DNA from: Octopus vulgaris | Lineage: Eukaryota | Reading direction: 5' to 3' | Length of the DNA: 64,000 bases | Assembly (NCBI GenBank): GCA_951406725.2 | Contig: OX597814.1 | Location: 45,012,001-45,076,000, forward strand | Shown here: positions 25,195 to 53,480 of the stretch, piece by piece | Layout of the letters: each line of letters opens with the position of its first letter | Numbering within the stretch: position 1 is the first letter of the stretch | Translations under genes and position numbers: made by a program | The notes under the pieces: model-generated | Databases searched by the model: none | What the model was told of the DNA's origin: nothing | What the model saw: only the letters and a program-made list of their open reading frames with translations

Positions 25195-25668
25195 TTATTA
25201 TTATTATTATTATTATTCTGTAGTATATTTTTTATATCGTGCTTTCACTTCACTAACGAGCACAACTCTGTGTGCCTTGGGTATGTGCTGTGATTTGTTG
25301 TAATGCTCTGATGGTTATTGTATGGAAAGTGTTCTGCGTAGGATGTGTGCAGTGCCTAGTAGTGCAATTTTCTGTATGTTATATATGTTTGTAAGTCCTG
25401 GTATTTTTGTTATGTATTTGTCTGAATATGTTTTTATCATGCCTAATGCACCTATTATGATAAGAATTGTTTCTGCTTTTAGATTCCACGTTCTGGTTAC
25501 CTCTATTTTCAGGTCTTTGTACTTTGAAAGTTTCTCCATTTCTTTTAGAGACACGTCGTCATCCGCTGGTACTGATACATCAATTAGAAAACATTTTTTT
25601 TCTTCATGATCTCTGACAACTATATCTGGTCTGTTGGCCTTAATTTCTCTATCTGTGTGTATCGGCAT
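25195..25668 (-). mobile_element. R4/Dong-type LINE 3' end (restriction-like endonuclease), diverged copy
   Basis: ANRPDIVV...LIDVSVP...EKLSKYKDL...IGALG...QKIALLGTAHILRRTL, then 3' UTR and a short (TAA)n tail. Confidence 0.92.
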
Positions 25669-26217
25669 ACTCTGGGATATGCCGATACACACAGATAGAG
25701 AAATTAAGGCCAACAGACCAGGTATAGTTGTCAGAGATTATGAAGAAAAAAATGCTTTCTAATTGATGTATCAATACCGGCTGATGACAACGTGTCTCTA
25801 AAAGAAATGGAGAAACTCTCAAAATACAAAGACCTGGAAATAGAGGTAACTAGAATGTGGAATCTGAAAACAGAAACAATTCCTATCATAGTAGGTGCAT
25901 TAGGCATGATAAAAAAATATTCAGACAAATACATAACAAAAACACCATGACTTACAAACACATATAACATACAGAAAATTGCACTACTAGGCACTGCACA
26001 CATCCTACGCAGAACACTTTCCATACAATAACCATCAGAGCATCACAACAAATCACAGCACATACCCAAGGCACACAGAGCTGCGCTCGGTAGTGAAGTG
26101 AAAGCACGCTATAAAAATAAAACTACTGAATAATAATAATAAAAATAATAATAATAATAATAATAATAATAATAATAATAATAATAATAATAATAATAAT
26201 AATAATAATAATAATAA
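25666..26217 (+). mobile_element. R4/Dong-type LINE 3' end, young 5'-truncated copy ending in a (TAA)n array
   Basis: Near-identical to 52788-53331. Tail array at ~26129-26217. Confidence 0.93.
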
Positions 26218-26400
26218 CATCGAAAAATACGTTAGGAATGAGAACCCAGGTTCGAAATTTTCCCAAGACACCTGATCAAGGCTGAAGGGTGTATCAGCCG
26301 AAACGTTGTGCGACCAACAAGCAAAGTGGGGACAAACATCCGTCAAAAGTAGATAATGTAAATAATGTACATAATTCCTCATCTCTTAAATATAGGACTG
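26218..26400 (+). mobile_element. Hammerhead-bearing repeat module after (TAA)n (HHR at 26268-26311)
   Basis: CAC-CTGATCA-A-GGCTGA...TCAGCC-GAAA-CG-TT-GTG. Homologous to 53332-53480. Confidence 0.75.
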
Positions 26401-51509: not shown

Positions 51510-53331
51510 CTGATATGCTCTATCTGATATGCTAAATAGAACTGGATGCAGATATAAATGTTACGGCAAAACGATCAGCCACCTTTTATATATGGATGAC
51601 CTAAAACTATACGCTGCAATTGACAAACAGCTGGAAACACTATTAAAGACAGTTCATGGATTTACCAAAGAAAAAGATATGAAATTTGGATTAGAAAAAT
51701 GCGCCAAAGTAACCATGAAAAGAGGAAAACTAGTTAAGAGTAACAACATCACACTAGATAAAACCAATGAAATAAAAGAATTAGACCAAAGCCAAACTTA
51801 CAAATACTTAGGAATCCATGAACTAGATAAGACACAACACACACAAATGAAAGAGAAAATAAAAAAAGAATATTATAGACGAGTTAGATCAATACTAAGC
51901 ACAGAGCTCAATGCTAAAAACAAGATAATAGGCATCAACACTTTAGCTGTCCCAGTTATAAGTTACAGCTACAGTATCCTTAACTGGACACGAAATGAAC
52001 TGACCAAAATAGATAGGAAAACAAGAAGAATAATGACAGGATCTAGAATGCATCACCCAAAATCTGACATAGAAAGACTATATATACAACGTATAGAAGG
52101 TGGTAGAGGCCTTATACAGCTGGAAAACTACTATAAAGTAACCACCATAGGACTGCAAAAATACCTACTTCAGAAGGAAGGAAAACTGATCCAGATAGCG
52201 GCAAAAGACGAGCAAAGCAAAAAACTGTTCTCAGTATTTAAGGAAGCTGACAAATACAAACAAGAAATCATACCACCTAATAAACATGAAGACGAAGAAG
52301 AAGATGAAGAAACAACAAAAGCTATGAAACAAATGAAATCCAAACTAAAAATAGAACAGCAACTAACCATGATAAAACGATGGCAAGAAAAGCCCCTTCA
52401 TGGTAAATACTGGACTAAACTAAACGCAAAAGAAATAGACAAGGAAAAATCCCAGCAATGGTTGAGAAGCTCAGGACTCAGAAACAGCTCAGAAACAGAG
52501 GGATTTTTAATTGCAGCACAAGACCAAAGCCTCCCCACCAGAAATTACCAAAAACATGTAATCAAAAGAAATATTACAAGTAACTGCAGAATATGTGGAG
52601 ATGGACAAGAAACAATAAATCATATTATCTCTAGCTGCCCAGTCCTGGCTAAGAAGGAATATATTCACAGACATGACAGAGTTGGAACCTACATACATTG
52701 GAAGCTATGCCAACATTATGGAATAACAACAGAAAAAAGATGGTATAGGCACACACCAGAAAAGGTCACAGAAAACGAGAAAGCAACCATACTCTGGGAT
52801 ATGCCGATACACACAGATAGAGAAATTAAGGCCAACAGACCAGATATAGTTGTCAGAGATCATGAAGAAAAACAATGCTTCCTAATTGATGTATCAATAC
52901 CGGCTGATGACAACGTGTCTCTAAAAGAAATGGAGAAACTCTCAAAATACAAAGACCTGGAAATAGAGGTAACTAGAATGTGGAATCTGAAAACAGAAAC
53001 AATTCCTATCATAGTAGGTGCATTAGGCATGATAAAAAAATATTCAGACAAATACATAACAAAAACACCATGACTTACAAACACATATAACATACAGAAA
53101 ATTGCACTACTAGGCACTGCACACATCCTACGCAGAACACTTTCCATACAATAACCATCAGAGCATCACAACAAATCACAGCACATACCCAAGGCACACA
53201 GAGCTGCGCTCGGTAGTGAAGTGAAAGCACGCTATAAAAATAAAATTACTGAATAATAATAATAATAATAATAATAATAATAATAATAATAATAATAATA
53301 ATAATAATAATAATAATAATAATAATAATAA
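51510..53331 (+). mobile_element. R4/Dong-type non-LTR retrotransposon, 5'-truncated young copy with a (TAA)n tail
   Basis: Microsatellite-flanked, with 3' UTR then (TAA)n. Dong elements are known to target TAA repeats. Confidence 0.93.
51529..53073 (+). CDS. Partial RT + CCHC zinc knuckle + restriction-like endonuclease (R4/Dong clade), truncated by a premature TGA
   Basis: HLLYMDDLKLY, KFGLEKC, YKYLG, GGRGL, CRIC...ETINHIISSC, RHD, NRPDIVV, LIDVSIP and EKLSKYKDL. Confidence 0.92.
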   Translation: MLNRTGCRYKCYGKTISHLLYMDDLKLYAAIDKQLETLLKTVHGFTKEKDMKFGLEKCAKVTMKRGKLVKSNNITLDKTNEIKELDQSQTYKYLGIHELDKTQHTQMKEKIKKEYYRRVRSILSTELNAKNKIIGINTLAVPVISYSYSILNWTRNELTKIDRKTRRIMTGSRMHHPKSDIERLYIQRIEGGRGLIQLENYYKVTTIGLQKYLLQKEGKLIQIAAKDEQSKKLFSVFKEADKYKQEIIPPNKHEDEEEDEETTKAMKQMKSKLKIEQQLTMIKRWQEKPLHGKYWTKLNAKEIDKEKSQQWLRSSGLRNSSETEGFLIAAQDQSLPTRNYQKHVIKRNITSNCRICGDGQETINHIISSCPVLAKKEYIHRHDRVGTYIHWKLCQHYGITTEKRWYRHTPEKVTENEKATILWDMPIHTDREIKANRPDIVVRDHEEKQCFLIDVSIPADDNVSLKEMEKLSKYKDLEIEVTRMWNLKTETIPIIVGALGMIKKYSDKYITKTP

Positions 53332-53480
53332 CATCGAAAAATACCTTAGAAATGAGAACCCAGGTTCGAAATTTCCCCAAGACACCTGATGAAGGCTGGT
53401 GAGTATATCAGCTGAAACGTTGTATTAACAACAAACAAGATGAGAACAAATATCCGTCAAATGTATATAATGTAAATAAT
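53332..53480 (+). mobile_element. Hammerhead-bearing repeat module after (TAA)n (HHR at 53382-53425)
   Basis: AC-CTGATGA-A-GGCTG...CAGCT-GAAA-CG-TT-GT. Homologous to the 26218 module. Confidence 0.78.

What the first reader, a model, noticed from the sequence alone, without database searches (positions are those of the whole stretch)
25666..53480. Two young Dong-type LINEs both sit immediately upstream of the same hammerhead module
Seen: both plus-strand copies run LINE 3' UTR, then (TAA)n, then catcgaaaaatac...HHR...gtaaataat (26218-26366 and 53332-53480). By eye the LINE parts differ at ~5 of ~460 nt while the modules differ at ~21 of ~150 nt. The second composite interrupts a Helitron helicase between ...LLNISD and LLEGLN.... 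The older minus-strand Dong copy (25195-25668) lacks the module. Established: Dong elements target (TAA)n. Inference A, favoured by the unequal divergence: an older HHR repeat seeds TAA arrays that serve as landing pads for Dong. Inference B: a chimeric LINE whose 3' end is defined by a captured ribozyme. Under either model, read-through Dong transcripts would get a self-cleaved 3' end.
Basis: partly seen in the sequence, partly recalled or inferred. Interest (0 to 1): 0.72.

Follow-up and report, generated by a model that had tools for sequence, protein, structure and literature searches.

The report
LINEs nested in Penelope terminal repeats
Two young copies of a TAA-seeking jumping gene sit in front of the same ribozyme-like stretch because each likely landed on its own in the TAA run inside an older, very common Penelope transposon end, and genome-wide the pairing is about as frequent as TAA targeting alone predicts, so this is ordinary nesting and not a chimeric element.

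Summary
The sequence observation holds: LINE parts differ at 5 of ~465 nt, modules at 21 of 157. The module is not a free hammerhead repeat. It is the 3' part of the terminal repeat (pLTR) of a protein-coding Penelope element: stop codon, tRNA-like head, (TAA)n, then the first ~170 nt of the ORF with a minimal hammerhead. The scan found this pLTR before on other DNA of this genome. The TAA array is internal to it. Left of copy B the end of the head survives (51422-51431), so the LINE split a pLTR. Genome-wide, 93 of 6,125 exact LINE ends have the module behind them (1.5% raw, ~3.5% corrected), against 5 of 120 background TAA arrays (4.2%). LINE and module distances are uncorrelated in 27 composites. 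Landing pad: supported, with no excess over TAA targeting. Chimeric LINE: refuted. Self-cleaved read-through ends: unlikely, since copy A has G8C in the core and B has weakened stems. The Helitron halves are not contiguous (~780 nt missing).

The parts
25195..25669 (-). Dong-like LINE copy C, older, 5'-truncated, with (TAA)7 tail at 25195-25215; no module
25660..25679 (.). Head-to-head junction of C and A, centred on a short natural hairpin of the LINE (CATA-8 nt-TATG); 4 nt shared
25666..26130 (+). Dong-like LINE copy A, young, 5'-truncated (endonuclease end and 3' UTR)
26131..26217 (+). (TAA)n array: LINE tail plus the internal spacer of the pLTR
26219..26392 (+). Module A: 3' part of a Penelope pLTR (first ~170 nt of the Penelope ORF, ATG at 26238, with 3' tail); 15 differences from the family majority
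26268..26311 (+). Minimal type-I hammerhead of A; core reads CUGAUCA (G8C), predicted inactive; predicted cut after 26307
   Evidence: PMC11167929 for the effect of G8C
50876..51418 (+). Decayed Helitron Rep region, left flank of locus B
   Evidence: PF14214 E=6e-14
51422..51431 (+). Last 10 nt of the tRNA-like head of the pLTR (CAGTGACCTG), left of LINE B
   Evidence: short match, read by position directly before AA(TAA)n as in the family
51434..51508 (+). (TAA)7 then (TTA)18: left part of the split pLTR array
51518..53253 (+). Dong-like LINE copy B, young, 5'-truncated (RT end, zinc knuckle, restriction-like endonuclease motif, premature TGA at 53071)
53254..53331 (+). (TAA)26: LINE tail plus right part of the pLTR array
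53333..53480 (+). Module B: 3' part of the Penelope pLTR without the tail; 7 differences from the family majority
53382..53425 (+). Minimal hammerhead of B: core intact, G-U closing stem II, C-A mismatch in stem I; predicted cut after 53421
53481..53900 (+). Decayed Helitron PIF1-type helicase region, right flank; ~780 nt missing between the flanks relative to L262

Best explanation
Both modules are decayed terminal-repeat ends of an abundant Penelope retrotransposon, and two young TAA-targeting LINEs likely inserted independently into the (TAA)n spacer that this repeat carries between its tRNA-like head and its hammerhead region. Shown: the order stop codon - head - (TAA)n - module; the module reading in frame into the Penelope ORF; arrays on both sides of truncated LINEs; head sequence left of LINE B; no link between LINE and module divergence; no excess over background arrays. 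Inferred: the order of events (Helitron remnant, then pLTR, then LINE at B; pLTR, then C, then A at locus A); insertion by target-primed reverse transcription at (TAA)n; loss of the head at locus A through a deletion between the inverted copies C and A. The hammerhead belongs to Penelope and would be a passive neighbour of the LINE.
For: Module loci: the LINE lies directly upstream in 3 of 30, one being locus B itself. Head loci: head-array-module directly in 23 of 30, same-strand module within 1.5 kb in 27 of 30, other repeats inside the array in several. Head and/or module follow the C-terminal domain of a Penelope-type ORF in 28 of 31 loci (two loci counted twice). L323 has the module at both ends of a ~2.4 kb decayed ORF, in frame with its N-terminus; RVT_1 over cut-off in L319. 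LINE 5' junctions abut a trinucleotide array in 26 of 31 visible cases, two of which (L057, L059) are the LINE's own internal GAA run. Module behind 5 of the 40 best LINE hits (3 of 38 outside the window) and 0 of 9 LINE ends in random regions. Genome-wide: 6,125 exact LINE ends, 9,950 exact module 17-mers, 93 both; 40 of 93 sampled modules carry the exact 17-mer, giving 2.8-4.6% corrected, against 5 of 120 (TAA)>=4 arrays, CI 1.4-9.5%. 27 of 32 composites long enough to compare: median distance 1.8% (LINE) vs 8.3% (module), Mantel rho -0.26, p=0.94. A and B modules share no derived variant. Dong targets TAA microsatellites (PMC3812793, passage).
Against: Two composites among three LINE ends in one window is locally unlikely (P~0.005 at 4%), and uniform placement predicts only 0.5-2.6 such windows genome-wide; I ascribe it to selection by the scan. 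The background sample is small (0.9 Mb; 2 of 94 for arrays of 6 or more units), so a preference of up to about two- to threefold is not excluded. Hammerheads scored intact in 7 of 30 composites vs 4 of 42 free copies (p=0.18). Locus A has no head or array left of the LINE. The head stub at B is only 10 nt. The module tree is almost unresolved (1 well-supported branch of 64), so it adds little. Pfam GIY-YIG did not hit this family's C-terminus.
Confidence: 0.9

Rival explanations
1. The LINE prefers pLTR arrays over other TAA arrays (open chromatin from the tRNA-like promoter, or Penelope-made nicks in the array), by a modest factor.
For: Two composites in one window; 3 of 38 best hits vs 4 of 104 arrays, odds ratio 2.1, p=0.38; only 2 of 94 arrays of 6 or more units are followed by the module.
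Against: Genome-wide corrected share 2.8-4.6% overlaps the background 4.2%; 0 of 9 LINE ends in random regions. Other repeats stack in the same arrays.
Confidence: 0.15
2. Chimeric LINE or 3' transduction: LINE and module move together, the hammerhead defining the RNA end.
For: Same order and strand in 93 genomic places; slightly more intact hammerheads in composites, not significant.
Against: 67 composite pairs with LINE distance <=1% have module distance >=4.7%. The module continues 60-85 nt past the predicted cut, so a cleaved RNA could not have templated it. Head sequence lies upstream in 10 of 18 composites. A has G8C. Most LINE ends lack the module.
Confidence: 0.02
3. The two loci are a segmental duplication or misassembly.
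For: LINE parts 99% identical, 27 kb apart; no listed contig piece of four other runs spanned the C|A junction (inconclusive).
Against: Flanks share nothing; 5' truncation points and 3' ends differ; modules differ by 14%; L036 and L037 elsewhere are closer to A than B is.
Confidence: 0.01
4. Reverse order: the pLTR inserted later at the tail of an existing LINE (Penelope endonucleases favour ATT sites).
For: The anole enzyme cuts 5'-ATT-3' (PMC11167929); locus A has no head upstream; nested pLTRs occur in arrays (L011).
Against: Modules are 5-9% from their majority, the LINEs under 1%; the head stub lies left of LINE B.
Confidence: 0.03

Closest known systems
Dong elements, R4 lineage (Bombyx Dong, DongAg, DongBg; PMC3812793 and PMC3774820, passages read)
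   Same: Single ORF with RT, zinc knuckle and restriction-like endonuclease motif; inserts in (TAA)n; (TAA)n tail; frequent 5' truncation.
   Different: No named Dong protein came up in the homologue search, so the clade is assigned by architecture and target. Dong's published ribozyme is a 5' HDV-like one, not a 3' hammerhead; I did not test it here.
Penelope/Poseidon EN+ PLE, anole PAc (PMC11167929, main text read whole)
   Same: pLTR overlaps the first ~170 nt of the ORF and holds a hammerhead; two 3' end points 25-40 nt apart (tail); 5' truncation; inverted arms in 17 of 30 head loci (cf. PMC8557442 passages).
   Different: Here a tRNA-Arg-like head and a (TAA)n spacer precede the ATG, and the whole hammerhead lies after the ATG. 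Clade name by resemblance, no tree built.
Minimal PLE hammerheads (PMC4209133, parts 1-2 of 4 read)
   Same: Type I, long helix II, short helix I, extra nucleotide before stem II, palindromic positions 15.2/16.2 with no stem III loop.
   Different: None in design; the two window copies are damaged.
Schistosome Sm-alpha SINE-like elements (seen second-hand in PMC6765202, passages)
   Same: Pol III-type promoter together with a hammerhead in a short repeat.
   Different: Here the unit is the end of a coding Penelope element, is dispersed, and has an internal microsatellite.

Membership tests
Dong / R4-lineage LINE | RT followed by zinc knuckle and restriction-like endonuclease in one ORF | tested here: met
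   RVT_1 and zf-RVT; only PDB sequence hit is an R2 protein; PD..D motif seen in the translation (motif recalled)
Dong / R4-lineage LINE | Insertion into (TAA)n | tested here: met
   Array at the 5' junction in 26 of 31 visible cases (two are an internal GAA run); TAA tail in all 40
Dong / R4-lineage LINE | RT phylogeny with Bombyx Dong and Ascaris R4 | not tested
   No named reference among 120 listed homologues
Dong / R4-lineage LINE | 5' HDV-like ribozyme | not tested
   Window copies lack the 5' end
EN+ Penelope-like element (parent of the module) | Single ORF with PLE-type RT | tested here: met
   RVT_1 34.1 bits in L319, weak in L323; all copies seen are decayed
EN+ Penelope-like element (parent of the module) | C-terminal GIY-YIG endonuclease | tested here: inconclusive
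   Pfam gave no hit; VYSIPCSCG..YKGET..R..EH pattern read as GIY-YIG from recall
EN+ Penelope-like element (parent of the module) | pLTR at both ends, overlapping the ORF start | tested here: met
   L323: 1 of 31 loci shows both ends
EN+ Penelope-like element (parent of the module) | Inverted 5' arms and optional 3' tail, no poly(A) | tested here: met
   17 of 30 head loci with inverted arm; ends near module nt 148 or 174
Minimal type-I hammerhead ribozyme | Core CUGANGA-N-stem II-GAAA-palindrome-UH and stem I | tested here: met
   Met in the family (L019 fold; 11 of 72 sampled copies intact)
Minimal type-I hammerhead ribozyme | Intact core and stems in the two window copies | tested here: not met
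   A: G8C. B: G-U closing pair and stem I mismatch
Minimal type-I hammerhead ribozyme | Self-cleavage | not testable with these tools
   Needs an in vitro assay
Chimeric (co-mobilised) LINE-ribozyme element | Congruent divergence of both parts, fixed junction | tested here: not met
   Mantel rho -0.26, p=0.94; 0 shared derived variants for A and B
tRNA-derived Pol III promoter in the pLTR | A and B boxes, likeness to a tRNA | tested here: met
   Best match tRNA-Arg among 10 anticodon types held, z~7.9 vs shuffles; ARAGORN calls no tRNA in 13 loci; Rfam tRNA not hit in L063; box consensus recalled
tRNA-derived Pol III promoter in the pLTR | Transcription by Pol III | not testable with these tools
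   T4 runs are rare on the Penelope sense strand (1 in 2.7 kb) but also on the LINE's (3 in 3.5 kb), so the test does not discriminate

The most novel reading that the evidence does not exclude
The Penelope element is driven by a tRNA-derived Pol III promoter, and the (TAA)n spacer between that promoter and its ORF is a self-renewing harbour for TAA-targeting LINEs: full-length Dong copies that land there borrow the upstream promoter and become source copies, while knocking out the Penelope copy. That would be one retroelement parasitising the promoter of another class.
Probability: 0.08. Interest if true: 0.65.

Novelty: new variant of a known kind. Interest (0 to 1): 0.25.

Why it matters
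The pairing itself matters little: it is nesting by a microsatellite-targeting LINE, and it warns that a LINE tail followed by a ribozyme need not be one element. What is less ordinary is the host repeat, a Penelope pLTR with a tRNA-like head just before the ORF, present in tens of thousands of copies (13 hits in 0.9 Mb, ~40,000 by extrapolation). I did not see this arrangement in the listings of searches; supplements and Repbase entries were not seen and could hold it. If Pol III does transcribe it, it would blur the line between autonomous elements and SINEs. The window holds only a 10-nt stub of that head, so it is a poor place to study it.

Tried and rejected
Rfam: no hammerhead or tRNA hit; the models miss minimal variants. 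First reading of the module as a non-autonomous tRNA SINE: dropped after copies with the 5' extension led into a coding Penelope ORF. The window's own GIY-YIG family and the Pfam GIY-YIG top hits as parent: no module similarity in 60 loci. A second tRNA-like segment in the module's 5' part: z<=1.8 against truncated tRNA records, rejected. RNA: no RNA holder listed. Three raw RNA runs of one study, same species label as one holder, laid on pLTR locus L022 at 85% likeness: thousands of reads, equal in both directions, no place where many molecules begin or end; this library type cannot show cleavage or strand, and the reads pool the family. C|A junction in contigs of four other runs: no listed piece spanned it, 32 of 2,825 pieces shown; no conclusion. 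Module tree: nearly unresolved. Pfam on short Helitron fragments: nothing; hits came on reading through stops with X. T4 depletion as evidence for Pol III: control LINE shows the same. The background sample stopped at 0.9 Mb, which leaves the confidence interval wide.

Full report
Observation. The window lies in a 2.8 Gb animal genome; earlier scan notes call it octopus-like, which I did not test. Two plus-strand LINE ends (A 25666-26130, B 51518-53253) run into (TAA)n and then the same module. The LINE parts differ by 4 mismatches and 1 indel in 473 nt, the modules by 21 in 157 nt. The minus copy C has no module and is older: 23 differences from the family majority against 3 (A) and 4 (B). 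The flanks share nothing, so this is no duplication.

The LINE. B encodes the end of an RT, a zinc knuckle and a restriction-like endonuclease motif; its only PDB sequence match is an R2 protein. All 40 best genomic hits end in TAA repeats, and 26 of 31 visible 5' junctions abut a trinucleotide array, two of these being the LINE's own GAA run. That is how Dong behaves (PMC3812793, passage). No named Dong protein was among 120 listed homologues, so 'Dong-like' rests on architecture and target. A and B both carry a premature stop and lack the 5' end.

The module. In 30 module loci the LINE is directly upstream in three, one being B. Most others have a tRNA-like head before the array. Searching with the head, 23 of 30 loci read head-(TAA)n-module directly, 17 of 30 have an inverted arm at the 5' side, and several hold other repeats inside the array. 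The head is closest to tRNA-Arg among the ten anticodon types I held. I first read this as a SINE. Earlier scan notes said it is a Penelope terminal repeat, and I tested that. Copies with a 5' extension (597 exact matches) lead upstream into an RT thumb and a C-terminal domain that I read from recall as GIY-YIG; Pfam does not hit it. Head and/or module follow that ORF's stop in 28 of 31 loci, two counted twice. In L323 the module also stands at the 5' end and reads in frame into the ORF. So the module is the first ~170 nt of the Penelope ORF, as in anole PAc, where this stretch holds the hammerhead and the RT start sites (PMC11167929, main text read whole). The ribozyme fits the minimal PLE type, which did not cleave as a monomer and cleaved weakly as a dimer (PMC4209133, parts 1-2 of 4).

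The TAA array is part of the pLTR. Left of B the window reads CAGTGACCTG-AA(TAA)7(TTA)18 (51422-51508), the family's head end and array. Of the first 30 of 93 composites, 12 had the LINE's 5' end out of view; of the other 18, eight have a same-strand head by BLAST, one a stub by eye and one an inverted head. The LINE splits a pre-existing repeat.

Is it more than chance? Exact patterns give 6,125 LINE ends, 9,950 module 17-mers and 93 places with both within 20-160 nt. Random placement predicts 1.5. But 40 of 93 sampled modules carry the exact 17-mer, so about 3.5% (2.8-4.6%) of LINE ends have a module, and 5 of 120 (TAA)>=4 arrays in 0.9 Mb of evenly spaced regions are followed by one (4.2%, CI 1.4-9.5%; 2 of 94 for six or more units). 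Among the best hits outside the window it is 3 of 38, in random regions 0 of 9. There is no detectable excess over TAA targeting; a two- to threefold preference is not excluded. Two composites in one window is rare (0.5-2.6 windows expected under uniform placement), which is what a scan picks out.

Co-mobilisation. In 27 of 32 composites long enough to compare, median distances are 1.8% (LINE) and 8.3% (module), Mantel rho -0.26, p=0.94; the 67 pairs with LINE distance at most 1% have modules at least 4.7% apart. Modules A and B share no derived variant, and A ranks 66th of 68 among B's neighbours. The tree needs 7 label changes for 7 rows but is nearly unresolved. Also, both modules extend 60-85 nt beyond the predicted cut, so a self-cleaved RNA could not have carried them.

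Self-cleavage of read-through RNA. A has G8C, the change that eliminated activity in PAc; B has a G-U pair closing stem II and a mismatch in stem I. PAc's hammerhead needed the Penelope protein and showed no RNA-seq ends at the cut site (PMC11167929). Against my reading, intact motifs were 7 of 30 in composites and 4 of 42 in free copies (p=0.18). RNA data here cannot decide the point.

Helitron. The left flank hits Helitron_like_N and a related locus hits PIF1, but that locus has ~780 nt between the two matching flanks. The insertion site is therefore also a deletion, and 'LLNISD' is partly pLTR head.

Locus A. C and A meet head to head at almost the same point of the LINE, on a short natural hairpin. 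C has no difference from the majority in its first 80 nt and 23 in the rest (P 0.01-0.045). I infer that a deletion between the inverted copies, perhaps with local conversion, removed the head and left array. This is 1 of 40 loci and is untested.

Verdict. Independent landings of a TAA-targeting LINE in the spacer of a Penelope pLTR (0.9). The pairing is ordinary. The tRNA-headed pLTR is a variant of a known kind that I did not see in the listings of searches; one search (nested insertion, Dong) listed nothing on this nesting by title or abstract start. Papers seen: PMC11167929 (outline, main text whole), PMC4209133 (parts 1-2 of 4), bioRxiv 10.64898/2026.07.22.740005 (part 1 of 5; links animal retrozymes to pLTRs), PMC8557442, PMC3774820, PMC3812793, PMC6765202 (passages). 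No supplements were read. Pol III transcription is untested, and T4 scarcity does not separate Penelope from the LINE. Interest 0.25.

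Noticed in passing
window 25195-26151: Copies C and A form a hairpin with ~450-nt arms (93% complementary) and an 8-nt loop at a natural mini-palindrome of the LINE; the first 80 nt of C look homogenised with the young subfamily. Seen in 1 of 40 loci.
   Followed up: partly
window 51434-51530: 5' junction of B: (TAA)7 flips to (TTA)18, then a short duplication of the LINE's first bases. 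A similar TAA-to-TTA flip precedes the LINE in L053 and occurs without a LINE in the array of L061.
   Followed up: no
window 24397-25190: Old remnant of another R4-type LINE (36% amino-acid identity to the L161 copy), cut off at the tail of C.
   Followed up: partly
L237-L260 (e.g. L237, L239, L242): A young Penelope-like family with 781-aa open frames carries a hammerhead with a U3-A8 core 0.7-1.4 kb after the start of its GIY-YIG match; the U3-A8 variant is described in PMC4209133.
   Followed up: no
window 21856-22287 (-), 40117-41204 (-): Fragments of other Penelope-like families; the first has many 93-99% identical relatives ending at (TA)n and is unrelated to the module.
   Followed up: partly
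window 8585-9860, 14133-14334, 48515-49007, 63784-63998: Another SINE-like repeat in several copies, in tandem at 8.6-10 kb with (ATT)n tails and as an inverted pair at 48581-49007.
   Followed up: no
L062, L064, L069, L075, L085, L300, L350, L353, L358, L362: pLTR arrays collect other TAA-tailed repeats and tandem LINE copies; several families stack in one array.
   Followed up: partly
L061-L090, 5' end of the head: Inverted arms start at a small hairpin just before the head (TGCCC-AC-GGGCA), which suggests cDNA snap-back at this point; RNA reads show the same fold-back ends.
   Followed up: no
window 26327-26380 and family: A 9-bp stem (AGATGAGGA / TCCTCATCT) closes the tail region of the module, near the two 3' end points; it may match the RT-start stem-loop of PAc.
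   Followed up: no
window 42208-42655: Near-perfect 224-nt palindrome built of simple repeats with no spacer.
   Followed up: no
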